Shown here one piece after another: positions 1,316-56,059 of a stretch of 56,059 nucleotides of DNA; the first letter of the stretch is position 1, and each line of letters opens with the position of its first letter. The notes below the pieces were generated by a model. It worked only from the letters and a program-made list of their open reading frames with translations. It searched no databases and was not told where the DNA came from. Location: the IMG/VR virus record IMGVR_UViG_3300033004_000002, positions 1 through 56,059 of that record; one strand, written 5' to 3'. A program made the position numbers and the translations under genes. This stretch comes from a virus (Duplodnaviria > Caudoviricetes).

Positions 1316-1506
1316 ATCCCCCGCTTGGCGTAGATCTCCAGCCGCCGCCCCATCGCCTCACGAAACCGCGGCAGGAACGGCCAGGCCTTCCGCGCGATCG
1401 CCATGTGCTGCATGCCCTGCTCGATCGAGGTCGGCGGGAAGCCCTGCGCGTAGTGCCATTCGGCGAGCGACAGCTGCGTCGTGCATCCGAGCACTGCAAC
1501 CAGCAC
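1312..1506 (-). CDS. Small protein overlapping the 3' end of the O-antigen-ligase-like gene (VLVAVLGCTTQLSLAEWHYAQG...)
   Basis: Alternative frame has a hydrophobic start and helical, TPR-like composition. Confidence 0.5.
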   Translation of the reverse strand: MLVAVLGCTTQLSLAEWHYAQGFPPTSIEQGMQHMAIARKAWPFLPRFREAMGRRLEIYAKRGI

Positions 1507-2545
1507 AATGGCCCGCAAACAGCGCGCCAAGAACGACGGTGCCCGGGTCGTGGAAGGGCATGGCGAACAGCGAGAGGACGAAGAGAGCGGCGAAGACGCT
1601 GCGCTCGGGCCGTTCGTCAGCGGCAAACCAGAGCCCCAGCGAAAACAGCATGCCGAGGCCAAGGGCTGGAACGCCGCCTTCGAAGACGAGCCAGAGCCAT
1701 TCATTGTGGGGGTGCTCCGGTCGGCTTTGCCAGTGGTTGAAATCGAAGGTCTGCGCCAATGCAAGGAACACCTCGCGGAATGAGCCGAGGCCATGGCCGA
1801 AGACGGTGAGGCCCGAAATGGTGTCGCGCCAGATAGCGAGGCGTTCGCCATCGGAAGGCGCCAAACCGTGCAAAATGAGGTACGTCGGAATCGCCATCAC
1901 AAGGGACAGCCCTGCGTAAATCCGAAACGGCCGATAGAGACTCTCCGTTACGACCACTCCCGCACAGATCCCAAGCCATGCCGCCTTCGACGGCGCGAGC
2001 ACCAGGGACGGCAGCAGCAGCGGCAGCAATAGCCATACGCGAGGGAGGGCAACCAACCCCACGGCGACCACGGCCGCCGCTGCTGCCAGCCGATCGCGGT
2101 TGACGAACAGTCCGGGATAGCCGCCGTTGACGATCTCGACGCCCTGCCAGCCGAACCATTGCGCCACAGCGACCGCGCTGTTGATGCCGATGCCGAGTGC
2201 CGCCCCGATGATGAGACCGCTGAGGTCGGTCAACGTCGAGCCGACGGCGAAGGCGCACAGCACGACCAGCAGTTCAAAGCTCGCCTCGCCGCCGTCGAGC
2301 CTGCCGTCGGTGCCGCCATCGTTCCAGAGAATCGACAGAACCAGCCAGCCGATCAGCAAGAGGCCGACCCAGTGCGTCATGGTCATGCGCACGCGCGGGG
2401 CCATGAACAGCGCGAGGGCAAGCGAGGCGGCGACGATCCAGCGCGGCGTGGTAGCCGCGCCGGCGATGCCGGGCCAGTAGGCCGTCATTAGCGCGAAACC
2501 GAACAGACCAGCGAACAGATCAGAACGGCGGAAACCCTTCGGCAT
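1358..2545 (-). CDS. O-antigen ligase / O-oligosaccharyltransferase (Wzy_C, WaaL/PglL-like) membrane protein
   Basis: About 10-12 hydrophobic segments; G-L-F-x-N-R, S-K-A-A-W, R-L-x-I-W, G-H-G-L-G-S-F and H-P-H-N-E-W-L...E-G-G motifs typical of Wzy_C. Confidence 0.85.
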   Translation of the reverse strand: MPKGFRRSDLFAGLFGFALMTAYWPGIAGAATTPRWIVAASLALALFMAPRVRMTMTHWVGLLLIGWLVLSILWNDGGTDGRLDGGEASFELLVVLCAFAVGSTLTDLSGLIIGAALGIGINSAVAVAQWFGWQGVEIVNGGYPGLFVNRDRLAAAAAVVAVGLVALPRVWLLLPLLLPSLVLAPSKAAWLGICAGVVVTESLYRPFRIYAGLSLVMAIPTYLILHGLAPSDGERLAIWRDTISGLTVFGHGLGSFREVFLALAQTFDFNHWQSRPEHPHNEWLWLVFEGGVPALGLGMLFSLGLWFAADERPERSVFAALFVLSLFAMPFHDPGTVVLGALFAGHCAGCSARMHDAAVARRMALRAGLPADLDRAGHAAHGDRAEGLAVPAAVS

Positions 2546-2768
2546 CGAGCCTCTCGTTCAGCGTGTCGTCGGGATATTCGGAGTGGTCGCGCCATTCGTC
2601 GGGCTGGTCGGGATCGTCTTCGATCTCATCGTCTTCGTCTTCCGGATCGAGCGACTGCACCATCCTGACGACGCATCCACGATAGATCACGTCACCCTTT
2701 TGGTATGGTCCCCAGTTCTCGGTCACCAGCAGCGCATGCTCGCCGCCGAAGTCGATCGTGCGCATCAC
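2520..2768 (-). CDS. Hypothetical acidic protein
   Basis: Coupled by stop/start overlap. Confidence 0.65.
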   Translation of the reverse strand: MMRTIDFGGEHALLVTENWGPYQKGDVIYRGCVVRMVQSLDPEDEDDEIEDDPDQPDEWRDHSEYPDDTLNERLDAEGFPPF

Positions 2769-3028
2769 TGCGCGCCATGAACCGTTGCAATCAACTCGTT
2801 GGCGTCCGCCTGCATGTCCCTGGCGATCTTGCCGGCCTTCTGCTCTGCGGCGAGCAGCTGACCCGACAGCACCTCGCGGTCTTCGTGCGCTCCGATGCCG
2901 GCATCGAGCAGGGCCTTGAGGTCGGACATCATCACCGAGGTGACGGGCGCGTTGCTGTCCATCGCGTGCTGGAAGTCGGCCAGCAGTTCCTTGGCGCGGT
3001 CAGCGAAGGACGGGAGGGTATCTGCCAT
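2765..3028 (-). CDS. Hypothetical helical protein
   Basis: High GC3; GAGGG upstream. Confidence 0.7.
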   Translation of the reverse strand: MADTLPSFADRAKELLADFQHAMDSNAPVTSVMMSDLKALLDAGIGAHEDREVLSGQLLAAEQKAGKIARDMQADANELIATVHGAQ

Positions 3029-3031
3029 CGT

Positions 3032-3418
3032 TCAACCCTCGCCATCTTCCCCCAAAGGGACATTCGACAGCCGCTCGATCACCGCCACGGACTCGTCAAC
3101 ACCCTTGATGATGGCATCGTAATAGCTGTGATGCTTTTCGGCTGCGGCATCACGTTTTCGCTCGGCGACACCGATCTTCGCCGCGATGCCGTCGAGCACG
3201 GTTTCGGTCTTCTTGTGGAAGTCCTGTGCGCGCTCGGTCAATGCCGCCATCTTGCCGGTCAGGCTCATTCGTCGATCCCGTGCGATGGTGGTCAAAACGC
3301 GCGCCGCGACAAGACGGTCTGCGGCGCCATCGATGGCCTCCGCGCTGACGATCGCCACGTCCGCGCTGACAACCTCCTGTGCGATGCCGGTGTGATCGGT
3401 GGCGGGATCAGGCATCAC
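3032..3418 (-). CDS. Hypothetical coiled-coil protein
   Basis: GTGA overlap with the terL stop; an alternative start at 3268 is possible. Confidence 0.7.
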   Translation of the reverse strand: MMPDPATDHTGIAQEVVSADVAIVSAEAIDGAADRLVAARVLTTIARDRRMSLTGKMAALTERAQDFHKKTETVLDGIAAKIGVAERKRDAAAEKHHSYYDAIIKGVDESVAVIERLSNVPLGEDGEG

Positions 3419-5037
3419 ATCGTCACCGTCGAATACATCTCGCCGCCCCGTTCGTCCCGCGCCTCGCGGTAGCCGTCGCGGCGGACCGGTTCGTCCTTCG
3501 CCAGCGACTTGATCCAGGGCCGCGACAGGCAGGCGTAGCGCCAGTCGTCCGCCGCATGATCTTCCGCATCGGTGTCGAGATCCTCGGCGCGGCTCTGGTC
3601 GTGCTGCAGCACCGGGATGGTGCGGATCGAGTCGGTACAGGTCGAAAAGCAGTAGATCATCGGCCGTCCCGTCGACCAGTTGATCGAACCGTCGGTTTCG
3701 TTGCGCTGCGCCGATCCGATCAGCCGCGCCCGGAACATGTCCCAGCCGCCCATGGGCCCGGCCTTCTCGCGGTCGCCGGTCTGCCGCGTCACGCGCTTGT
3801 TGTCGGCGGCGATGAACGCGGCGAGCTTGGCCTTGAACAGTTCCTCGTTGATGCGCTCGGCGTTGGAGGGGCCGCCATCCTCGGTGAAAGCGGAAGGGTC
3901 CAGCACGCCGTAGGTCAGCTTGGCGAGGTCATCGCGCTCGCGCGACGCGATGCCCTTGCCGACTTCGTTCGCCGTCAGCTTTCCGCCGACGGCGCCGTAC
4001 CATTCGCGGTATCGGACCAAGGCGCCTCGGGGAAGCGTTTGCGTGCTTCTTCCCGCGTCATTGGACGAAACTGGAAGTGAAAGTCCGTCGGACTGTTGAA
4101 GAACTCCTCCTGCGGACCCGGGAAAGGCCTCCAACCTGAACTCGTCTCCGACGACCGCCCACCATCCGACACTGAACGGGCTGTAAGAACCCCAGTCACC
4201 GCTGCGAAAGCGCAGCCAATGCTCCGGAATAGCGAACGGCGTGACAACATGTTGCTCATTGCTCCATTCCGAGAAGAAGGCGCCTTCGATCGCGGTCCAG
4301 TCGCCTTCGAGCCAGGCCTTGACCAGCTGCGCGGTGCCGACCAGGTAGAGCCGCGAGCGGTAGCCCGGATCGCTCTGCAGCAGGATCTTGTTGTTTTCCA
4401 GCCGCGAGGGGATCACCGCCATCTTGTGCAGCGAACCGTCGGGCAGCTTGCGCGTCAGCACCTTCGGCCGGCGCGGGAACGGATGCAGATGGTAACGGTT
4501 GCGAAGCCAGTGCTGGCCGGCGCCGCCGGGGTTGGCGGTGAGGATCAACTGGACCGGCACGCCGTGGCTGGAGCGCAGCACGCCGAACAGCCGGTCGATC
4601 GGCGCCGAACTCGGATATTGCCCGGCTTCTTCCACCCATGCATCGGTGACGTTGCGACCCTGGTACTCGTTGGCGTCCTGCACGCTCTCCAGATACTTGA
4701 ACCGGACTTTGCCGCCGTTCGGCATGATCCAGCCCTTGTTCTCGATGTAGCGCCCACCTAGCGGGCCGTAGATTTCCTTCGACCGGTCGATCGCATCTTC
4801 CGCCGAGGTCGTGGTGCGGCGGAACATGATCGCGTTGAAGGCCGTGCCGTATCGCTTTTCCTTCAGCGCCCACTTGCCGAGCACGCCATCGGTCTTGCCG
4901 CCGCCGCGGGCGCCGCCGAAGAACACTTCCGGAAACGGACAGCAGCAGAGATCGTCCTGCGGGCCTTCCTGCGGCGACCAGGAGCGGTCCTGGTCATGGG
5001 CGACATGCGCGCTGGTCCGCGGCGCGACGACATTCAT
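3415..5037 (-). CDS. terL: Terminase large subunit
   Basis: W-x-P-Q-x-G-P-Q, Walker A GGARGGGKT, Walker B WVEEAG, LTANPGG, nuclease DWG and EDHAADDWRY. Confidence 0.95.
   Translation of the reverse strand: MNVVAPRTSAHVAHDQDRSWSPQEGPQDDLCCCPFPEVFFGGARGGGKTDGVLGKWALKEKRYGTAFNAIMFRRTTTSAEDAIDRSKEIYGPLGGRYIENKGWIMPNGGKVRFKYLESVQDANEYQGRNVTDAWVEEAGQYPSSAPIDRLFGVLRSSHGVPVQLILTANPGGAGQHWLRNRYHLHPFPRRPKVLTRKLPDGSLHKMAVIPSRLENNKILLQSDPGYRSRLYLVGTAQLVKAWLEGDWTAIEGAFFSEWSNEQHVVTPFAIPEHWLRFRSGDWGSYSPFSVGWWAVVGDEFRLEAFPGSAGGVLQQSDGLSLPVSSNDAGRSTQTLPRGALVRYREWYGAVGGKLTANEVGKGIASRERDDLAKLTYGVLDPSAFTEDGGPSNAERINEELFKAKLAAFIAADNKRVTRQTGDREKAGPMGGWDMFRARLIGSAQRNETDGSINWSTGRPMIYCFSTCTDSIRTIPVLQHDQSRAEDLDTDAEDHAADDWRYACLSRPWIKSLAKDEPVRRDGYREARDERGGEMYSTVTM
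3975..4259 (-). CDS. Overprinted ORF inside terL; twin-arginine-like N-terminus (MSNMLSRRSLFRSIGCAFAAV...)
   Basis: GGAG just upstream of ATG; terL third-position GC drops over this interval; terL has an apparent insertion here. Confidence 0.6.
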   Translation of the reverse strand: MSNMLSRRSLFRSIGCAFAAVTGVLTARSVSDGGRSSETSSGWRPFPGPQEEFFNSPTDFHFQFRPMTREEARKRFPEAPWSDTANGTAPSAES

Positions 5038-5046
5038 GCGAATCCG

Positions 5047-5310
5047 CTAATGCCGGCCGTGAAGACCATATCCCATCTGCACAGAGAAGCGCGGCACACC
5101 ATCGATGCAAAGATGCGTGATGCCGTTCTCCAGATCGATCAGCGAAAACCGCTCGATCTCAACACCGCACTCTCGGAACCGATGAATAGCGGCTTCGATC
5201 GCTTGGATTCGCGCCTCTCGCGCCTGGCGCACAAGGTCGACCGTCAGGCTATGAAAGACCTTTGAGTCAATGACCCCAGGCTCTTCATAAAATCTAGTCG
5301 GCACCTGCAC
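5047..5310 (-). CDS. Hypothetical protein between terS and terL
   Basis: GGAGG upstream; fills the gap. Confidence 0.6.
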   Translation of the reverse strand: MQVPTRFYEEPGVIDSKVFHSLTVDLVRQAREARIQAIEAAIHRFRECGVEIERFSLIDLENGITHLCIDGVPRFSVQMGYGLHGRH

Positions 5311-5743
5311 GCTGCGCCTCCCATTCGGATTCCGACATCGGCTTTTCCGAGATCAGGTAGACCGAGGCCGGGTTGTTGCCGGTGGGATCTGTCAGCGCGG
5401 TCTTGGTCACCGCCTTGAAGCCGTGCATGTCGCGGAGCTGGGCGAGCGCGCCAAGCCGATGCGGCCAATCCAGCACGACGCGGCGGCCGGGAAACTCCGA
5501 ACCATCGCCATAAGCGATTGCCGAAAGCGCCGTCTCGATCTGATCGCGCTTTTCACGAACCACGTCTTCGCTGGTCGCGACCAGTTCGGCGATGCGCGCC
5601 TGCACGGCTTTGTTGCGCTCAAGCTTGGTAGCAACGCCAGACGTCGGCTTAAGCCCGATCGCCTTCGCTGCCGCGCGCGGCGGAATCAAGATCGCGCGAA
5701 GACGCGAATACCGTTCGTGGTTCTCGTTGGTCAGGACTGGCAC
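5294..5743 (-). CDS. terS: Terminase small subunit
   Basis: Probable GTG start (MPVLTNENHERYS...), HTH followed by VQARIAEL; directly upstream of terL. Confidence 0.75.
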   Translation of the reverse strand: MPVLTNENHERYSRLRAILIPPRAAAKAIGLKPTSGVATKLERNKAVQARIAELVATSEDVVREKRDQIETALSAIAYGDGSEFPGRRVVLDWPHRLGALAQLRDMHGFKAVTKTALTDPTGNNPASVYLISEKPMSESEWEAQRAGAD

Positions 5744-5908
5744 AAGGTGATTCCAAAAGATTCCAACTTGTTCATGTTCCAAAAGATCGCCGCTCGCGCC
5801 GGGGAATGCCGGGATGGATGGACCGACACGAGCGGCAGTCAAAGGGAGGAAACGCCCTGAGAGGGCAGCGATAGCCGCAAGGTGACTACCGCATACCCTA
5901 TGCAAACG

Positions 5909-5937
5909 AAAAAGCCCGGCACTGAGGCCGGGCTCTT
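5909..5937 (-). terminator. Rho-independent terminator in the late leader
   Basis: AGCCCGGC/GCCGGGCT stem followed by a T-run on the minus strand. Confidence 0.8.
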
Positions 5938-5944
5938 GAAGATA

Positions 5945-5991
5945 TGGGGACAATGACCAGCGGAATTACATGGGACACCTGTCAGGTTATT
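5945..5991 (-). repeat. Bipartite site copy A (AATAACC-N26-GGTCATTGTCCCCA)
   Basis: Aligns with copies B-G. Confidence 0.9.
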
Positions 5992-6211: not shown

Positions 6212-6790
6212 CTATACCGCTTCGATCTGGTCCTCATTCAAGTGCAGCAGGACCTGACGCGTCAATATCTCGATTAGAATGGTGATTCGGTAGCGCGGGT
6301 CAAGCCGCTCAATGCGACCTTCCCACATGTCGAACGGGCCGCCGATCAAGCGCACCTTCTGGTCGACCCTGAATTTGCGCTCCTCGGGCAGTCCGTTGCG
6401 CCTGGCTTCGAACCTGCGAACGTCTGCCATGACGCTGAGCGAGATTTTCAGTGCTTCCGGGCCTTGCTTGCCGCAGTATTTAACGAAGCCTCCGATGCCA
6501 TCCGCCGCATCCTTGAGCCTAGCGATATCGGCGTCGAAGTCCGGAATAAACATCGCGCCGGGAAAGATCGGGACCGTCCTCGACAAGCGACGGTTCCATG
6601 CACCCTTGATCGTCCGTTTTTCCTTCGGCACATAGGCCGAGATGCCGTGCTGATGCAGCTGCCGCTCGGCCTTCAGGTCATAGTTCGGATGCAGCCGCAG
6701 CAGGTACCACAGTTTCGGCAGCGGTGTTGCGATAACAGGCCCTTGGACGCACGCGACAAAATCCCTGGTTTCGTAAAGCGCTGCTGTCAT
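6212..6790 (-). CDS. NusG/RfaH-family transcription antiterminator
   Basis: NGN motifs (WYLL...P, PIFPG-MF) and KOW motif (F-x-x-D-Q-K-V-R-L-I-G-G-P-F); sits upstream of terminators and the late genes. Confidence 0.9.
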   Translation of the reverse strand: MTAALYETRDFVACVQGPVIATPLPKLWYLLRLHPNYDLKAERQLHQHGISAYVPKEKRTIKGAWNRRLSRTVPIFPGAMFIPDFDADIARLKDAADGIGGFVKYCGKQGPEALKISLSVMADVRRFEARRNGLPEERKFRVDQKVRLIGGPFDMWEGRIERLDPRYRITILIEILTRQVLLHLNEDQIEAV

Positions 6791-50776: not shown

Positions 50777-51663
50777 TGCCGATACCCCCATGCCGAGACG
50801 GACACCACACCGCCGGAGCCTGGAGCTGCCGAAATCACTGCAATAGCCTGATTGGCACCAGAGGCAGGAATGCAGGCCCTGCCGAACGGTGGTTCAGTGA
50901 TTCCGATGCCACTCGCGAGAGGTGCGGTCCATTGCGTGAAATTCATCGTTCCGGTTATTGTGCCCGTGACCGTCGCATTGCCCGTTGCAGCCGCGGTCGC
51001 ATTCGCACGGATCGAAAATCCGCAAATATATGTCGTGGTGGTCGAACTCGCCGCCAGCGTTGCAGTGGTCGCGCCCGTCGTTCCCGTAGCCGATGCGGTA
51101 ATCGGAATGGCACCCAGCGGATATAACGACGTCAGCGTGACCGGAAAGTTGTTGTCGGCCATTACGGAGGAGATCGCTGTCGATCCCAGCATGGCAACGT
51201 TGACGCTGCCGCTCGCAATGTTGGTTCCGACGATCCGGATCGCCGACATGCCGGCGGCATTGATTTGGAAGATACCATTGGCTGTGATGGCCGTAACGGA
51301 GGCGCCGCTCGTCAAGGAGACGGCCGTCGTTACACCCCACGTCGCGCTGGCTGCGCCGACCTGGCCATAATCGACCGATGCCTGCACCTGCAACGCGCCG
51401 GTCCACGTCCCCGTGACGGAAAGACCAACCGTCGATTGTCCGTCGACGGGAATGACGACAGAATCGTTGGTCGACGCGATCGACCGGGACGTCGCAGCCC
51501 CACTGCATGGCACAGCCTGGGACTGACTGTTCAGGCACATGACGACTTTGCCGTCGACCTGAGAACCGCCCGGTGTCGTAAACGAGCTTTGGGCCCGCGC
51601 GGAAAATGCTGCGAGCGAGAACAGCAGCGAGAGTGTGACAGCGCGGATGATACCCAAGATCAT
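50773..51663 (-). CDS. Secreted-type S/T/A-rich virion accessory protein
   Basis: Signal ...SARA|Q; two beta-rich domains; ATGA coupling to the portal. Confidence 0.78.
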   Translation of the reverse strand: MILGIIRAVTLSLLFSLAAFSARAQSSFTTPGGSQVDGKVVMCLNSQSQAVPCSGAATSRSIASTNDSVVIPVDGQSTVGLSVTGTWTGALQVQASVDYGQVGAASATWGVTTAVSLTSGASVTAITANGIFQINAAGMSAIRIVGTNIASGSVNVAMLGSTAISSVMADNNFPVTLTSLYPLGAIPITASATGTTGATTATLAASSTTTTYICGFSIRANATAAATGNATVTGTITGTMNFTQWTAPLASGIGITEPPFGRACIPASGANQAIAVISAAPGSGGVVSVSAWGYRQ

Positions 51664-53660
51664 GGCATTGCCTGCGGCTGTGGTTGCGGCAACGGTTGCG
51701 GACCGCCCGCCCTGCCAGCTTGCGGCGGCTGCTGCCCGGCCTGCGCAATGCGATGCGCATCGAACAGCGTGTCACGGACATATTCGGCTGCGGCCAGATG
51801 CAGGTTGGTCTGGGCGTGCCCGACGCCGGCCCGTTTCTCTTCCGCCGTGGCCGCGGCCTGGTCGGCGTTGGCTAGCAGCTTCTGGGTTTCGGCCGCGGTC
51901 TTGGCATTGCGGCCCGCGACGCCTTCGAGCTGCAGCCGCTTGACCAACTCGGCCATCGGATCGGGCGGTTGCGGCTTCGGCGCGAGCAGCTGCAGCGCGC
52001 GATCCTTTTCCGAGCGCGGCATGCTCGGGTCCATCTCGATCAGCACCTGCGGTGGGATCGAGCCCGGCGGCAGCTGCCACAACTTGTTGGAGAGTTCCTC
52101 CATCATCGAGATCAGGTCCGGGCCCTGGTCGAGCACGATATCGACGTCGAGTGCGCCCACCGCGTTGACGATGACGGGGCGGCCCATTTCGTCGACATCG
52201 ACGCCGTTCAACTGGATGAACTGCGCCAGCTTGTCGTTGGAGTTGACCCGGATCCAGCGCTCCGCGGTCCAGTGCCGCTGAATCGCGTTCCAGATCGAGC
52301 GATAGATATCGAGCTTCCAGGAGCGATGCGCCAGCACGAACGGCCCCAGTTCGGCCATGCCTGGCTGCCGCAACAGTTCGATCGCCTTGCCGGAAATGTT
52401 GGTGATGCCGCCCGGCCCGCCCATCGCCGCAAGATCGGCATTGGCGAAGCCGTCGAGCTCTTTCTTCGCGTCGTCCGTGAAGGTCGAGAACACGGCGATT
52501 TCCGGCTTGGAATCGTTGATCTCAAATTTCTTTTGCGGATTGACCTCGATCACGCCGTCATGCCGCGCCGCTTCCCGCCGCGCGGTTTCGACGTCGTCGA
52601 CGGCGCCCTTCTCCAGGATCAGCCGGCGCGAGTTGGCCAGCGCCAACATCTTGGACTTGCCCTGGTTGAGCGCATCCTGCGGCCCCTTGAAGTTGCGAAC
52701 GAAGGAATAGCGGTCGCCGTCATGATCGACCATCGGGCCGAACATCTTGAACGAGGACTCGCTGTTGCCGCGGTCATCGGCGAATGGCGAGAGGCCCTGA
52801 TCCAGAAGCACGTTGGCGCAGTAGAACGCCCAGCACCATTTGCCCCGATGCTTGTACCAGTGTTCGATCATGCGCACGCGGCGTTGTGCGAGGATCATCC
52901 ACTTGATCTCGCGATCGGGATTGGTGGTCAGATCGCTGTCGCCCTGGAACAGGCCTTCGAGGTCGTCGCGGCGCTCGGGAAACATTTCCGCCGCGGCCTC
53001 GACGTCCATCCACTTCATGATGCCTTCGTAGCGGACATCCTTGAAGTTGAAGGCGTAGGAGCGCGGGTCATAGAAATACTCGTCGCCGATGACCGGGTGC
53101 AGCCCGATATCAGGGTCGCCCTTGTCGCCCTGGCGCAGGATCAGTTGTACGCCGCCGATCGCCTCGATGCCCACTTGCAGAAGGCAGGACGGCTCAATCG
53201 TGGTCTTGAACTGGTTGGCGTCGCAGACGTAGCGGATCGACTGCGTGGCGATCTCGGCTCCGGCTTCGCTCTTCGGGTTGCGCCCCATCGCCTTGGGGTC
53301 GCAGCGCATGCGCTCGACCTGGCCGACGATGCCATTGATCTTCCGTCCGACGCGGTTCCATATCTGTTCTGGCTGATGCCGCAGCCGCAACACCTTGCGC
53401 TGCTCGGCGGTCAGCTGCGCGCCGTGGTAGTAGCGGCGGGAGTCCTTCTGTTCCTCGATCTCCTCGACCTTGCCGCCGAGATAGTCCTGCAGCTGGCGAT
53501 GCAGCGTGATGACAGGAAGGAACTGCCCGCTGTCGTCCTCGCCGACCGTGTTGTCGCGCTTGTCCTCGTCCGGATTGTTGTCGCCGCGCACAAGCGGCGC
53601 CATCCGCGCGCGATCGGCGCGCGCCATGGTGGCGGACAAGGCTGCGTCAGACAGGGGCAT
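51660..53660 (-). CDS. Portal protein (P22-like)
   Basis: YYHG.Q.T....L..R.QP...NR...KIN...G; YDPRS; V.N..GPQD..N; SG.AI; N.V..LDVDI..D.GP. Confidence 0.92.
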   Translation of the reverse strand: MPLSDAALSATMARADRARMAPLVRGDNNPDEDKRDNTVGEDDSGQFLPVITLHRQLQDYLGGKVEEIEEQKDSRRYYHGAQLTAEQRKVLRLRHQPEQIWNRVGRKINGIVGQVERMRCDPKAMGRNPKSEAGAEIATQSIRYVCDANQFKTTIEPSCLLQVGIEAIGGVQLILRQGDKGDPDIGLHPVIGDEYFYDPRSYAFNFKDVRYEGIMKWMDVEAAAEMFPERRDDLEGLFQGDSDLTTNPDREIKWMILAQRRVRMIEHWYKHRGKWCWAFYCANVLLDQGLSPFADDRGNSESSFKMFGPMVDHDGDRYSFVRNFKGPQDALNQGKSKMLALANSRRLILEKGAVDDVETARREAARHDGVIEVNPQKKFEINDSKPEIAVFSTFTDDAKKELDGFANADLAAMGGPGGITNISGKAIELLRQPGMAELGPFVLAHRSWKLDIYRSIWNAIQRHWTAERWIRVNSNDKLAQFIQLNGVDVDEMGRPVIVNAVGALDVDIVLDQGPDLISMMEELSNKLWQLPPGSIPPQVLIEMDPSMPRSEKDRALQLLAPKPQPPDPMAELVKRLQLEGVAGRNAKTAAETQKLLANADQAAATAEEKRAGVGHAQTNLHLAAAEYVRDTLFDAHRIAQAGQQPPQAGRAGGPQPLPQPQPQAMP

Positions 53661-54206: not shown

Positions 54207-55544
54207 TCACCCCTTCGCCATCATCTTGTCGAACTGCCGGTCGGAGATCTTCCCCGCCTTGTGCAGCCGCTCGGCTTCCTTCTGCTCTTTGGAGAGCTTC
54301 TTTTCCGGACCGAGCACCTGCTCGAGCTGCTCGCGGGCGATGTCCAGCGCATCGACGGGCTTGTCCAAGAGATGCCCCTCGACCAGTTCGCAGATGCGCT
54401 TGCACTCCGCGATCGCTTCATCAGGCGTGCTGCCCAGCGCAACCACGGCGCCAATTTCGGCGCAGCCGGTCCATTGCGGGATGACATAGTACTCGCCCTC
54501 AATGATGCAGTAGTTGCGGAGCTTGACGTTGTCGCGGACCTCGTCCGGAAACGAGACGTGCATCCAGTTCTGGTCCGCCCAGTCCGAGATCAGGAGCACC
54601 TCGGCGCCCCACTTCGCCTGGAACTCCGGCTCGATCACGATGCCTTCGGAGCCGTACCAGATGGCTTCCGCCATGTTGGTCATCAGGAGCTGATAGAGCT
54701 CGTTCGGCGGCGAGCCGGCGCGGCAGCAGGGATCGATCAGGTAGGCCTTGCCGTCCTTGGTGCAGCGGACTTCGGTGGAGATGAAGCCGCGATAGCCATA
54801 CTTCTTCAGCGCGGGCGCGAGCTTTTCGTTGACACTGCGGACCTGCTCCGGAAGTTCGGACCAGCGCACCGTCTTCATCAGGTAGGCTTCGTCCTTGACC
54901 TCGACCCCGGTCATGGCCGCCTTGGGAAACTGGCCGTCGATGGTGTAGCCGTCGTAGCCGGTCTCGACCGCGTCCGGGATATCCTGCTCGACCGTGAACT
55001 CCATGATCTTGGTGTAGGCGCCGAGGTTGTGGTCGAGCTCGTCGAGCCGCACCTCGACCTTGGGATAATCCTTGGCGCCGAAGGTCTCCATGTCGCCGCG
55101 GGTGCCGGAGATCTTCACCCACTGGTTATCATTGGCCTTGAGGTACTTGCGCAGCGCATCAAGCCCGGTGACGACCTTGTAATGGCCGATGTCGATGCCG
55201 AGCTTTCTCGACACCTCCTTCGACGCCGGCCGGTCGATCTCCAACTCTGCGCCGGAGCGGCAGCCCCACACGCGCTTGCCTTGCGCGACCAGGAAGTCCT
55301 GCAGGTCGCCCTCATAGACGTCGGGGAAGATCCACACGTCTATGTCGTCATAGAACGACCACGGCGAATCGATCCGCTCGACGCCGTCGATACCACTGCC
55401 GATCAGGCGCGCATTCGACTTCGGCATGCCGCTCGTCCACGGCACGTAGTAGAGCACGCGACCGAAGTGCTTCGCCAGCGTTTCGGCCATGGCCGTGAAG
55501 ATGCCGTTGTCCCAGACGAGGCAGCACTTCGAGCGCAGGTTCAT
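54207..55544 (-). CDS. PurD-like ATP-grasp ligase
   Basis: G..VWG.....LE.DR...K, WVK, VE.G, G.E.K, GYRGF...E, Y.ID..CR.G.PP; start MNLRSK by ATGA coupling. Confidence 0.82.
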   Translation of the reverse strand: MNLRSKCCLVWDNGIFTAMAETLAKHFGRVLYYVPWTSGMPKSNARLIGSGIDGVERIDSPWSFYDDIDVWIFPDVYEGDLQDFLVAQGKRVWGCRSGAELEIDRPASKEVSRKLGIDIGHYKVVTGLDALRKYLKANDNQWVKISGTRGDMETFGAKDYPKVEVRLDELDHNLGAYTKIMEFTVEQDIPDAVETGYDGYTIDGQFPKAAMTGVEVKDEAYLMKTVRWSELPEQVRSVNEKLAPALKKYGYRGFISTEVRCTKDGKAYLIDPCCRAGSPPNELYQLLMTNMAEAIWYGSEGIVIEPEFQAKWGAEVLLISDWADQNWMHVSFPDEVRDNVKLRNYCIIEGEYYVIPQWTGCAEIGAVVALGSTPDEAIAECKRICELVEGHLLDKPVDALDIAREQLEQVLGPEKKLSKEQKEAERLHKAGKISDRQFDKMMAKG

Positions 55545-55924
55545 TTCAGATTCAACTCCGAGTAGAACTGCCGTCCCTCGCCGCGCTCCACCGCCATCTC
55601 GAACAGGCTCGCCGTGCGATCGACAATGAACTGATCGAACGGCCTGCACGAGCAGATGAACAGATACGCGCCGCGATGGTCTGGCCATGTGTCCAGCGCG
55701 AGAAAGGAATCCGTGATCGGCATCACGGCCGTGCGGCCGTTGCCGCCCTTGCCGTGCAGCGGATAGGTCCAGAGCGCGTGGTCGCCGACCGCTGTCATGC
55801 CGATCGCGTCCGTTAGGGCCTGCAGGAATTCCACGAGGCGCGGCGCGCCGATATCCTGCTCCATCCGCAGCGTGACGCCGAAGGCGTGCATGCGCTCGCC
55901 GAGGACGAGATCGGGGAAGCCCAT
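55541..55924 (-). CDS. S-adenosylmethionine-decarboxylase-like (pyruvoyl) protein
   Basis: IGMT...G.T...ITDS.L.L.TWPD..AY..I.SC.PFD versus SpeD G-x-T-x-x-x-x-L-x-E-S-H-x-S-x-H-T-W-P-E...D-x-F-T-C. Confidence 0.78.
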   Translation of the reverse strand: MGFPDLVLGERMHAFGVTLRMEQDIGAPRLVEFLQALTDAIGMTAVGDHALWTYPLHGKGGNGRTAVMPITDSFLALDTWPDHRGAYLFICSCRPFDQFIVDRTASLFEMAVERGEGRQFYSELNLK

Positions 55925-55932
55925 CAGTCTTC

Positions 55933-56059
55933 GACCTCATCCGACGAAAGCCGCGCCAGAAACCCTATCGCGTTCGTTGACCCGTCCCGCCGCAATCCAG
56001 GCGTCAACGGTTCATCGAATGGCCGCCGGGTGAACCCGAGCTTCCGCTCGCCGTCGCGC
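55933..56059. repeat. 127-bp terminal direct repeat (copy 2)
   Basis: Identical to 1-127. Confidence 0.97.

What the first reader, a model, noticed from the sequence alone, without database searches (positions are those of the whole stretch)
3975..4259. Overprinted gene inside terL with a Tat-like signal and a terminase-N-terminus look-alike
Seen: a 94-codon alternative-frame ORF with its own GGAG RBS. It starts MLSRRSLFRSIGCAFAAV (twin-arginine-like) and contains WRPFPGPQEEFFNSP, resembling TerL's own WSPQEGPQ start, and MTREEARKRFPE, resembling portal MDVEAAAEMFPE. TerL codons become A/T-ending over this span, and TerL shows an apparent 25-30 aa low-information insert between WWAVV and LPRGAL that encodes these motifs in the other frame. 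Inference: a real nested gene, perhaps a membrane-tethered decoy of TerL/portal epitopes sensed by host defences, or a Tat/lysis modulator.
Basis: partly seen in the sequence, partly recalled or inferred. Interest (0 to 1): 0.72.

Follow-up and report, generated by a model that had tools for sequence, protein, structure and literature searches.

The report
Hidden exported-protein gene inside phage terL
The large terminase gene of this 56-kb phage carries a second gene in another reading frame, kept open in dozens of related phages, which seems to encode a small exported protein with a highly variable body, and it explains an odd variable loop in the terminase.

Summary
The 94-codon ORF (3975-4259, minus strand, +1 frame of terL) exists as described. 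On its own it is unremarkable: synonymous shuffles of terL leave that span stop-free 39% of the time. Related sequences make the case.

- **Open frame.** In 32 distinct TerL loop inserts of 14 aa or more (window included), the +1 frame has 1 stop against 22.9±3.3 expected. The +2 frame has 57 against 58.9. Eleven further inserts gave 1 against 13.6.
- **Synonymous constraint.** TerL genes with long inserts show their strongest synonymous constraint at codons 256-280. Genes with short inserts show none there.
- **Forced rare codons.** Rare T-ending codons are fixed at these sites and spell M-L-S-R-R-S-L-F-R-x-I-G-C-A-F-A-A in +1.
- **Co-occurrence.** This Tat-like motif occurs with long inserts in 28, 1, 6 and 103 of 138 rows. 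The link holds in independent tree contrasts.

I read this as a real overprinted gene. A signal peptide is written over the conserved nuclease strands, and a hypervariable cargo fills the TerL β2-β3 loop. Translation, export and function are untested. The claimed likeness to the TerL start and to portal is not significant.

The parts
3415..5037 (-). terL, large terminase subunit, 540 aa; host gene of the overlap
   Evidence: ORF. Pfam Terminase_3 E 3.1e-5, 24.1 bits against a cut-off of 23.2. 7925 relatives with E up to 0.001 among the 8000 candidates scored. AF2 model mean pLDDT 75.
3975..4259 (-). Nested ORF in the +1 frame of terL: 94 codons plus a TGA stop at 3975-3977
   Evidence: The homologous +1 frame is open in the relatives with long inserts.
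4262..4265 (-). GGAG, a possible Shine-Dalgarno element, made by TerL codons TGG-AGC
   Evidence: It lies 2 nt from ATG1 and 11 nt from ATG2. GGAG/GAGG-like elements stand upstream of the start in most relatives. Codons 259-262 show no synonymous constraint.
4245..4259 (-). Candidate start codons: ATG 4257-4259, ATG 4248-4250, TTG 4245-4247
   Evidence: ATG2 needs the CAT codon of His263. Among long-insert relatives with His at this site, CAT is used in 18 of 21 sequences, against 0.46 elsewhere in the same genes. Relatives without it have an ATG 5 codons, or a TTG 9-10 codons, before the motif; the TTG follows GAGGGAGC.
4224..4244 (-). Codes S-R-R-S-L-F-R, the twin-arginine-type motif of the nested protein
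   Evidence: In alignment A2 (22 nested products) S6, R8, L10 and F11 are invariant, and R7 and S9 are at least 90% conserved.
4179..4223 (-). Codes SIGCAFAAVTGVLTA, a 15-residue uncharged h-region flanked by Arg on both sides
   Evidence: AF2 predicts a helix at residues 7-31, with block pLDDT 71-85 over the first 20 residues. The T at TerL third positions supplies the hydrophobic residues.
4201..4251 (-). TerL codons 263-279: the block of strongest synonymous-site constraint in long-insert terL genes
   Evidence: observed/expected codon identity reaches 1.48 (gene-wide mean 0.99, sd 0.11), and the top 12 windows all start at codons 256-267. The short-insert group is at its gene-wide level or below at most of these codons (0.85-0.96 by window in the motif-defined grouping). 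Site-wise codon bias.
4036..4137 (-). Dual-coding insert. In TerL it is a disordered β2-β3 loop (RLEAFPGS...STQT). In the nested frame it is the variable cargo (GWRPFPGPQEEFFNSPTDFHFQFRPMTREEARKR).
   Evidence: +1 stop depletion. GC by phase fits the nested frame in 27 of 31 inserts. More cross-lineage peptide similarity in +1 than in the other frames.
3978..4035 (-). C-terminal tail of the nested protein, read over the conserved TerL strand LPRGALVRYREWYGAVGGKL
   Evidence: No synonymous constraint was detectable here. The stop comes from the conserved K-L-T codons (AAG CTG ACG) in many relatives, while others run on further.

Best explanation
A real overprinted gene lies in the +1 frame of terL.

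**Shown by comparison**
- Selection keeps this frame open.
- Selection fixes otherwise rare T-ending TerL codons, so that the +1 frame reads M-L-S-R-R-S-L-F-R-x-I-G-C-A-F-A-A-x-T-G...(A-x-A)-G-G.
- This happens only in terL genes that carry a long insert in the β2-β3 loop of the nuclease domain.

**Inferred**
- Ribosomes start inside the late terL mRNA at ATG 4248-4250, or at ATG 4257-4259, using the nearby GGAG/GAG.
- The N-terminal 30 or so residues act as a cleavable export signal of twin-arginine type. They are written over the conserved TerL strands, which is why they are conserved.
- The remaining 60 or so residues, mostly coded by the loop insert, are released to or held at the periplasmic side.
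- The insert is primarily the nested gene's coding space. TerL merely tolerates it as a disordered loop.
- The G/R/D/A-rich TerL reading and the low GC3 are by-products of this arrangement.

**Guessed**
- The cargo is hypervariable between lineages, so I favour an envelope-side role under diversifying pressure. Candidates are exclusion of competing phages and lysis timing.
For: 1. **+1 stops inside inserts.** In 32 distinct long inserts (949 codons) there is 1 stop against 22.9±3.3 under codon permutation. None of 2000 permutations was as low (minimum 10). The +2 frame has 57 against 58.9.
2. **Calibration of that null.** Elsewhere in the same genes the observed/expected ratio is 0.88 and 1.02.
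3. **Replication.** In 11 further inserts (425 codons) there is 1 stop against 13.6±2.5, and the +2 frame has 28 against 29.4.
4. **Synonymous constraint.** Groups were defined by insert length only and the window was left out. The 33 long-insert genes peak at 1.48 at codon 265, and the top 12 windows all start at codons 256-267. The 104 short-insert genes have no peak there.
5. **Site codon bias in the long-insert group, against use elsewhere in the same genes**:
   - Ala269 GCT 16/17 (0.13)
   - Ile270 ATT 16/19 (0.22)
   - Val270 GTT 10/11 (0.18)
   - Phe277 TTT 23/30 (0.27)
   - Ser279 AGC 21/28 (0.21)
   - His263 CAT 18/21 (0.46)
6. **Motif against insert.** The counts are 28 (motif, long), 1 (motif, short), 6 (no motif, long) and 103 (neither) of 138 rows.
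7. **Tree contrasts.** On a TerL tree built without codons 255-356, the motif goes the same way as the insert in about 8 of 13 independent contrasts and the opposite way in none. The sign test gives a median p of 0.008.
8. **Decay where the insert is absent.** Close relatives without the insert have lost the start (L081) or carry a +1 stop in the signal part (L082, L165).
9. **Which frame is constrained inside the inserts.** Of 861 pairs, 12 exceed the 99.9% shuffle level in +1, against 3 in frame 0 and 2 in +2, with 0.9 expected. GC is highest at the nested third position in 27 of 31 inserts.
10. **Signal-like character.**
    - SRRSLFR is followed by 15 uncharged residues, then Arg.
    - Homologs have ASA or ALA just before GG.
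    - AF2 predicts a helix at residues 7-31.
    - All three named nearest sets in the ESM Atlas are Tat-signal proteins, with scores 0.91-0.93.
    - TIGR02811 (formate_TAT) matches weakly in 5 of 22 members.
11. **No conserved RNA structure.** Nothing found explains the constraint otherwise.
Against: - **No evidence of expression.** No RNA run was available and no proteomics exist.
- **The window alone is uninformative.** The ORF is within chance there.
- **No curated Tat model matched at E up to 1.** Pfam gave nothing relevant and NCBIfam gave only the sub-threshold formate_TAT hits. The Atlas recognition value was low, 1867 against 2300.
- **The RBS is not clearly conserved.** Codons 259-262 show no synonymous constraint. 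Some loci (L167, L128) show no SD-like element.
- **The cargo shows little conservation.**
  - Mean pairwise similarity of the inserts differs little between frame 0 and +1 (z 6.6 against 6.9).
  - AF2 gives mean pLDDT 63.9 and no fold beyond two helices.
- **The C-terminal tail shows no constraint**.
- **Some long inserts lack the motif.** Three of 34 (L042, L150, L218) have nothing like it.
- **No pair of intermediate divergence was available.** dN/dS by frame could therefore not be computed.
- **The data have limits.** The tree is a FastTree tree with many weak branches. Almost all sequences are uncultured contigs, and the one from a cultured strain (L001) lies in a prophage whose terL is split.
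Confidence: 0.75

Rival explanations
1. Chance ORF with no product. The local codon oddities reflect something else, such as a rare-codon cluster that slows translation just after the ATPase domain has emerged from the ribosome, or a DNA or RNA element inside terL.
For: In the window alone the ORF is within chance. Long alternative-frame ORFs are common in this GC-rich genome. The constrained block holds a perfect hairpin, GCTGCG-CTTT-CGCAGC, at 4201-4216, which keeps all six pairs in 13 of 31 long-insert sequences. The block lies at the start of the nuclease domain.
Against: A pause or an RNA element does not explain the loss of +1 stops inside unrelated inserts 20-60 codons downstream. It does not explain retained start codons, the link between motif and insert, or the fact that common codons (CCG, CGC, AGC) are fixed as strictly as rare ones. 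RNAalifold finds almost no consensus structure (-6.2), the window's fold energy equals that of shuffles (-52.6 against -53.1±3.3), and the hairpin is broken without compensation in L161, L083, L130 and others.
Confidence: 0.08
2. The insert is an adaptation of TerL itself, for example a variable surface loop that escapes a host defence sensing TerL. On this reading the +1 ORF is incidental.
For: The insert lies in a surface loop between two strands and is hypervariable in length and sequence. The TerL frame stays open through it in every gene kept, although I selected for that. That some defence systems recognise TerL is recalled knowledge, not tested here.
Against: It does not predict an open +1 frame alongside a normal +2 frame. 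It does not predict synonymous constraint 20-40 codons upstream of the insert only when the insert is present. It does not predict a TerL-frame GC3 that is the lowest of the three phases (0.45). The TerL reading is low-complexity (G, R, D, A and S make up 55%), while the +1 reading has an ordinary protein make-up. The two readings are not exclusive.
Confidence: 0.07
3. The +1 frame is reached by programmed ribosomal frameshifting from terL. This would give a truncated ATPase-only TerL with an alternative hydrophobic C-terminus, not a separately initiated exported protein.
For: In the window the +1 frame is open for 51 codons upstream of the ATG (145 open codons against 94 from the ATG). Public protein sets hold TerL-N::+1 chimeras (P0134, P0148).
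Against: The upstream open stretch is only about 20 codons in L163, L167 and L100. Codons 240-262, where a slip site would have to lie, show no synonymous constraint (0.92-1.02). Start codons are retained just before the motif. The chimeras are 2 of 33 hits and may be assembly indels or broken genes.
Confidence: 0.05

Closest known systems
Lambda Rz1 (o-spanin) embedded in Rz
   Same: A same-strand gene wholly embedded in the +1 frame of another gene of a tailed phage, coding a small exported envelope protein. PMC8785237 (passage read) gives it as the best example and says embedded genes are rare in Caudoviricetes.
   Different: The host gene here is terL, not a lysis gene. The Cys here stands at the start of the hydrophobic stretch, not after it, so there is no lipobox. 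There is no partner i-spanin relationship, and the cargo is hypervariable. The properties of Rz1 are recalled.
PhiX174 E (in D) and MS2 L: overprinted single-gene lysis proteins
   Same: Membrane-targeted proteins of about 90 aa, overprinted in another frame of an essential morphogenesis or structural gene, with an N-terminal hydrophobic segment and a poorly conserved rest (recalled).
   Different: Those belong to very small ssDNA and ssRNA phages that lack other lysis genes. This is a 56-kb tailed phage. Here the hydrophobic stretch is 15 residues bounded by Arg, which looks like a signal peptide rather than a membrane anchor. No lysis activity was tested.
Twin-arginine (Tat) signal peptides, e.g. 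of hydrogenase small subunits and Rieske proteins
   Same: An S-R-R-x-(L/F)-F-(R/K) motif, a Gly/Ala/Thr-rich h-region, a basic residue before an A-x-A-like site, and nearest ESM Atlas clusters that are such proteins.
   Different: No curated Tat model matched. The cargo is small, variable and without cofactor motifs. Much of the motif is pre-set by the conserved TerL residues xPFA(I/V)P..WLRFRS.
T4 RI antiholin and phage superinfection-exclusion proteins (functional analogy only)
   Same: Small phage proteins of about 95 aa, sent to the periplasm by a weakly hydrophobic N-terminal segment and acting on lysis timing or incoming phage (recalled).
   Different: Those are stand-alone genes. There is no sequence or fold similarity, and nothing here tests such a role.
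Arbitrium AimP-type phage signalling peptides (functional analogy only)
   Same: A phage-coded small precursor with an N-terminal export signal and a lineage-specific mature part (recalled).
   Different: Those occur in Gram-positive hosts, as a separate gene beside a receptor gene. No receptor candidate was identified here.
Inteins and other insertions in terL
   Same: Extra sequence inside terL that the enzyme tolerates.
   Different: The inserts here are 14-62 aa with no splicing blocks and are read through as a loop. Their conserved property is an open alternative frame. Intein properties are recalled.

Membership tests
Overprinted (embedded, same-strand) protein-coding gene | The alternative frame is kept open in relatives beyond what the host gene's codons would give | tested here: met
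   1 stop against 22.9±3.3 in 949 insert codons, and 1 against 13.6±2.5 in 425 further codons. The +2 frame is as expected. The null is calibrated elsewhere in the gene.
Overprinted (embedded, same-strand) protein-coding gene | Reduced synonymous variation in the host gene over the overlap | tested here: met
   Met for the N-terminal part only: a peak of 1.48 at codons 256-280 in long-insert genes and none in short-insert genes, with site codon bias. Not seen over the C-terminal tail.
Overprinted (embedded, same-strand) protein-coding gene | A conserved start codon with a ribosome-binding site | tested here: inconclusive
   Every long-insert locus with the motif, strict or degenerate (31 of 34 rows, window included), has an ATG, GTG or TTG candidate in the open +1 stretch before it. 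The CAT that makes the ATG is favoured 18/21. SD-like elements vary, are absent in some loci, and show no synonymous constraint.
Overprinted (embedded, same-strand) protein-coding gene | The product is detected (Ribo-seq, mass spectrometry, tagged fusion) | not testable with these tools
   No RNA holder was listed and only DNA contigs were available.
Tat (twin-arginine) signal peptide | An (S/T)-R-R-x-F-L-K-like motif near the N-terminus | tested here: met
   SRRSLFR at residues 6-12. In 22 products S6, R8, L10 and F11 are invariant and R7 is at least 90% conserved. The consensus itself is recalled.
Tat (twin-arginine) signal peptide | A moderately hydrophobic uncharged h-region, then a c-region with a small-x-small cleavage site | tested here: met
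   15 uncharged residues, SIGCAFAAVTGVLTA, are followed by R-S-V-S-D in the window. Homologs have ASA or ALA before GG. The criteria are recalled, and no SignalP or TatP tool was available.
Tat (twin-arginine) signal peptide | A match to a curated Tat-signal model (Pfam PF10518, TIGR01409) | tested here: not met
   No such hit at E up to 1. Only TIGR02811 matched, in 5 of 22 members with best E 0.031. Atlas neighbours carry PF10518, but that is a lead only.
Tat (twin-arginine) signal peptide | Export that depends on TatABC and on the RR pair | not testable with these tools
   This needs a reporter fusion in tat+ and tat- hosts.
Rz1-type embedded o-spanin | A lipoprotein signal with a lipobox Cys at the end of the h-region, embedded in an i-spanin gene | tested here: not met
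   The Cys at residue 16 precedes the hydrophobic stretch, and the host gene is terL.
Large terminase (TerL), the host gene | An ATPase with a Walker A motif plus an RNase H-like nuclease domain, and a match to terminase models | tested here: met
   Pfam Terminase_3 is above its cut-off. GGARGGGKT is invariant in 40 sequences. The AF2 model has strands 275-281, 289-295 and 340-347. terS lies directly upstream. There was no sequence match in the PDB, and no fold search was run.

The most novel reading that the evidence does not exclude
terL, the hallmark gene of tailed phages, hosts a widespread unannotated gene family born by overprinting. The +1 reading of the conserved nuclease strands became an export signal. 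The 'hypervariable loop' of TerL then exists mainly as coding space for a lineage-specific secreted peptide made late in infection. That peptide would act outside the cytoplasm as a phage-specific signal or exclusion factor between competing phages. If so, the nested gene drives the evolution of the hallmark gene rather than the reverse.
Probability: 0.2. Interest if true: 0.9.

Novelty: new variant of a known kind. Interest (0 to 1): 0.78.

Why it matters
- **A hidden gene in a heavily used marker.** terL is the most widely used marker gene of tailed phages, and gene callers never report a second gene inside it. A word search with the 94-aa product against 5.8 billion proteins found nothing.
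- **It explains an odd feature of TerL.** A selected nested gene accounts for the variable low-GC3 insert in the nuclease domain of many TerL proteins.
- **It adds a rare kind of example.** It would be a second clear class of embedded gene in Caudoviricetes beside Rz1. PMC8785237 calls such genes rare.
- **It is a clean case of gene birth.** An export signal is read from the alternative frame of two conserved β-strands, and the new protein's body grows inside a loop that the old protein tolerates.
- **It matters for tree building.** This stretch of terL is under dual constraint, so trees and codon models built on it should mask it.
- **It is directly testable.** Mutations silent in TerL and reporter fusions would test it.

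Tried and rejected
- **Word search with the 94-aa product**. Three candidates shared words, and none scored E up to 10.
- **Pfam and NCBIfam on 22 nested products**. Nothing was above threshold.
- **Profile search of 1.84 billion representatives**. There were 33 hits. By their TerL-derived ends (..ENGT..), most look like the same nested ORF called on fragments, or frameshifted terL. No named free-standing family emerged.
- **AF2 of the nested product**. Confidence was too low for a fold search, so none was run.
- **dN/dS by frame.**
  - Insert DNA of different loci is either identical or cannot be aligned.
  - Only one gapless block of 36 nt or more was found among 43 inserts, between L247 and L289.
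- **Public sequencing runs**.
  - No RNA holder was listed.
  - X1 may be the source sample.
  - X2 gave identical fragments.
  - X3 gave one 131-nt piece with 9 differences upstream of the insert.
  - Nothing covered the insert in another strain, so there is no population evidence either way.
- **Mean pairwise similarity of insert peptides**. It did not separate frames 0 and +1. The tail of the distribution did.
- **RNA structure over the constrained block**: rejected.
- **Internal promoter or terminator**: none found inside terL.
- **Derivation of the insert from the portal gene or the TerL N-terminus**: rejected as not significant.
- **Cultured relatives.**
  - The nearest phage is Pseudanabaena phage Pam5, at 57% identity, with a 477-aa TerL. 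I judged its insert short from that length alone.
  - Only 4 of 401 genomes of the family of G001 matched at E up to 1e-80.
  - Their prophages other than G001's have inserts of 4-13 aa, and the +1 frame shows neither the motif nor, in 4 of 5 loci, openness past the GG.
- **PDB sequence search for TerL**: no hit at E up to 0.01.
- **Literature.** In four searches I saw only listings and abstract starts. None described a gene embedded in terL.
Full report
**What is there.** The window is a complete 56,059-bp virus record with direct terminal repeats.

- terL lies at 3415-5037 on the minus strand and codes 540 aa. Pfam Terminase_3 is just above its cut-off.
- terS lies directly upstream, at 5294-5953. 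An antiterminator-like gene lies at 6212-6790. Portal lies at 51660-53660.
It runs from 3975 to 4259 on the minus strand, with 94 codons, starting at offset 778 of terL. Its codons therefore begin at TerL codon position 2, which I call the +1 frame.
- Its product is MSNMLSRRSLFRSIGCAFAAVTGVLTARSVSDGG..., ending at a TGA made by the TerL codons for K-L-T.

**The window alone proves nothing.**

- I shuffled synonymous codons within terL, keeping the protein and the codon usage. A +1 ATG-ORF of 94 codons or more appeared in 57% of shuffles. The very span was free of +1 stops in 39%.
- terL also contains alternative-frame ORFs of 205, 221 and 233 aa, as expected in DNA of about 65% GC.
  - TerL GC3 is 0.86-0.89 outside codons 251-354. 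It is 0.62 over codons 260-354 and 0.50 over codons 301-336, and no other phase rises to take its place.
  - TerL has a 34-aa stretch between GWWAVVGDEF and LPRGAL (4036-4137). It is predicted disordered, with pLDDT below 50 at residues 305-331. It lies in the loop between strands 289-295 and 340-347 of the nuclease domain.

**The TerL family.**

- A protein search found 7925 relatives among the 8000 candidates scored.
- In an alignment of 40 of them, everything is well conserved except this loop. The loop varies from nothing to about 60 residues and cannot be aligned. This is true even for P0001, which is 90% identical overall.
- I fetched DNA for relatives from genome, metagenome and viral contigs. 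Of 240 loci, 163 gave a full TerL frame holding DWG and R[YF]RE, and 137 of these were distinct. With the window that makes 138 rows.

**Test 1: is the +1 frame kept open?**

- I took the 32 distinct inserts of 14 aa or more, 949 codons in all, window included. I permuted the TerL codons within each insert.
- The +1 frame holds 1 stop where 22.9±3.3 are expected. None of 2000 permutations gave so few; the minimum was 10.
- The +2 frame holds 57 where 58.9 are expected.
- The null is calibrated. In the same genes outside the region, the observed/expected ratio for +1 stops is 0.88 (codons 20-250) and 1.02 (codons 360-520).
- These inserts share no alignable DNA, so they count as nearly independent trials.
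- For replication I scanned viral contigs for a 16-mer that lies outside the insert. It found 56 loci, of which 27 were in terL context. Eleven of these had new inserts, 425 codons in all.
- In those eleven the +1 frame has 1 stop against 13.6±2.5, and the +2 frame has 28 against 29.4.

**Test 2: synonymous constraint in terL.**

- For every pair of sequences I compared codon identity at sites with the same amino acid. The expectation was that pair's own rate for that amino acid.
- A first grouping used the +1 motif, which is circular. I therefore regrouped by insert length alone and left the window out.
- The 33 long-insert genes have a gene-wide mean of 0.99 (sd 0.11) and a single outstanding peak of 1.48 at codon 265. 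The 12 highest windows all start at codons 256-267.
- The 104 short-insert genes peak elsewhere (1.21 at codon 418) and have no peak in this region. Most of their per-codon ratios over codons 263-279 are 0.6-1.0.
- At single sites, the long-insert group uses codons that are rare elsewhere in the same genes:

| TerL site | Codon | Long-insert group | Share elsewhere in the same genes |
|---|---|---|---|
| Ala269 | GCT | 16/17 | 0.13 |
| Ile270 | ATT | 16/19 | 0.22 |
| Val270 | GTT | 10/11 | 0.18 |
| Phe277 | TTT | 23/30 | 0.27 |
| Ser279 | AGC | 21/28 | 0.21 |
| Pro267 | CCG | 28/31 | 0.52 |
| His263 | CAT | 18/21 | 0.46 |

- TerL third positions are second positions in the +1 frame. These T's are therefore what gives Leu, Phe, Ile and Val there. 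CAT followed by G makes the ATG.
- The constrained block CAT GTT xTC xCG CCG TTC GCT ATT CCG ... CTG CGC TTT CGC AGC reads M-L-S-R-R-S-L-F-R-x-I-G-C-A-F-A-A in +1.

**Test 3: do motif and insert go together?**

- Among the 138 rows, the counts are as follows:

| | Insert of 14 aa or more | Shorter insert |
|---|---|---|
| +1 motif S-[RK]-R-x-[LVF]-F present | 28 | 1 |
| Motif absent | 6 | 103 |

- Three of the six rows with a long insert but no strict motif carry a degenerate form of it.
- I built a TerL tree without codons 255-356. On it the long-insert state needs 18 changes, or 13 if only well-supported branches are counted.
- In phylogenetically independent contrasts, the motif changes the same way in about 8 of 13, never the opposite way. 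The sign test gives a median p of 0.008.
- The closest relatives without the insert show decay. L081 keeps the motif but has no start. L082 and L165 have a +1 stop inside the signal part.
- Five prophage loci in three other genomes of the family of G001 (handles only) have inserts of 4-13 aa and no motif. In four of them the +1 frame ends at or just after the GG.

**Which frame matters inside the insert?**

- The TerL reading is low-complexity: G, R, D, A and S make up 55%. The +1 reading has an ordinary protein composition.
- GC by phase is 0.67, 0.54 and 0.45 for TerL positions 1, 2 and 3. In the nested frame the third position is therefore the highest and the second the lowest, as in a normal gene. 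This holds in 27 of 31 inserts.
- Among 861 pairs of 42 distinct inserts, 12 exceed the 99.9% level of a residue-shuffle null in the +1 frame. The counts are 3 in the TerL frame and 2 in +2, with 0.9 expected.
- Examples: NSRLIQFRRESWERY against NAKLMQFRQQSWNEY, and VVRGEYRGITF against VIRGEYRGITF.
- The mean similarity, however, does not separate frames 0 and +1 (z 6.6 against 6.9). The cargo is very diverse: 57 distinct mature parts fall into 34 clusters at E up to 1e-3.
- I could not compute dN/dS by frame, for want of pairs of intermediate divergence.

**What the product looks like.**

- Residues 6-12 are SRRSLFR. Fifteen uncharged residues rich in Gly, Ala and Thr follow, then Arg, then small-x-small sites (ARS, SVS). 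Many homologs have ASA or ALA directly before the invariant GG.
- A 15-residue stretch bounded by arginines fits a cleavable signal better than a membrane anchor. That is inference from recalled rules.
- AF2 gives a helix at residues 7-31, a short helix at 69-75, and low confidence otherwise (mean pLDDT 63.9).
- The three named nearest sets in the ESM Atlas are all Tat-signal proteins: Fe-hydrogenase small subunit, the Rieske Tat-signal domain, and PF10518 fragments. Their scores are 0.91-0.93. The recognition value is low, so this is a lead only.
- No curated Tat model matched. Only TIGR02811 did, weakly, in 5 of 22 products.
- I therefore hold 'exported by an N-terminal signal' at about 0.6 and 'by Tat specifically' at about 0.45.

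**How it would be expressed.**

- terL contains no promoter-like or terminator-like site. The ORF would therefore be read from the late terS-terL mRNA by internal initiation.
- Most long-insert loci have an ATG two codons before the S of SRR. The others have an ATG five codons before it, or a TTG nine to ten codons before it preceded by GAGGGAGC.
- GGAG/GAGG-like elements are common upstream but not universal. They show no synonymous constraint.
- In the window, GGAG (4262-4265) is too close to the first ATG and 11 nt from the second.

**Rivals.**

- *A translational pause or an RNA or DNA element.* This could account for conserved rare codons. It cannot account for the open frame in the inserts, the retained start codons, or the link with the insert. 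No consensus RNA structure is found. The perfect hairpin at 4201-4216 is broken without compensation in several loci.
- *A TerL-side reason for the variable loop.* It predicts none of the +1 signals. It may well act alongside the nested gene.
- *Frameshifting from terL.* It is disfavoured by the short and variable open stretch upstream, and by the lack of constraint there.
There is no DNA similarity.

**Known or new.**

- Gene callers do not report this ORF. The word search found nothing.
- The profile search found only 33 short or chimeric ORFs, which look like the same nested frame called on fragments.
- Four literature searches showed nothing on a gene embedded in terL. I saw listings and abstract starts only.
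- The Phage Annotation Guide states that embedded genes are rare in Caudoviricetes and cites Rz1 (passage read).
- I file this as a new variant of a known kind, the overprinted embedded gene. Two features are unusual. The export signal is read from the alternative frame of conserved β-strands of a hallmark enzyme. The new protein's body occupies, and probably creates, that enzyme's variable loop.

**Caveats.**

- There is no expression evidence of any kind.
- Nearly all sequences are uncultured contigs.
- The only locus from a cultured strain (L001, a Bradyrhizobium prophage) has a terL split into two frames.
- The tree is a quick one with many weak branches.
- The function is a guess.

Noticed in passing
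window 1358-2545 (-): A 395-aa multi-pass membrane protein downstream of terL gives a sub-threshold Pfam Wzy_C (O-antigen ligase/polymerase) match, 28.7 bits against a cut-off of 31.7. It has no PHROG match. It may be a surface-polysaccharide-modifying accessory gene placed among the packaging genes.
   Followed up: partly
window 4201-4216 (-): A perfect 6-bp hairpin, GCTGCG-CTTT-CGCAGC, is formed by the TerL codons for (W)LRFRS, inside the block of synonymous constraint. It keeps all six pairs in 13 of 31 long-insert relatives and is broken without compensating changes in others.
   Followed up: yes
L247, L250, L259, L262, L264, L265, L274, L284, L286 versus L289 (viral contigs): Nine viral contigs carry an identical nested product. 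L289 keeps the same signal and the same distal part (NWRPAITY.EPDCSPAVPSS), but its central cargo segment is different and shorter. Cargo segments therefore seem to be replaced piecewise.
   Followed up: partly
P0134, P0148, P0145, P0150: Public protein sets hold chimeric ORFs that join the TerL N-terminal part to the +1 frame, or the +1 frame back to the TerL frame inside the insert. They may be broken terL genes, assembly indels, or real frameshift products.
   Followed up: no
L001 / L299 (G001:C1:5732525-5734077): The Bradyrhizobium oligotrophicum S58 prophage terL (74% identical) is split into two overlapping frames near residue 414-435, with one TGA inside the first match. Its nested ORF is still open, at 90 codons.
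   Followed up: partly
window 6212-6790 (-): An antiterminator-like protein (phrog_6386, E 1.2e-16) is coded just upstream of terS and terL. This suggests that the packaging genes, and so the nested ORF, belong to an antitermination-controlled late transcript.
   Followed up: no
window 2520-3418 (-) and 54207-55940 (-): Between terL and portal lie several ORFs with no informative family match: 128, 87, 82 and 577 aa. The 128-aa one has only a weak hit to a PHROG of unknown function. So terL and portal are not adjacent in this phage, unlike in Pseudanabaena phage Pam5.
   Followed up: no
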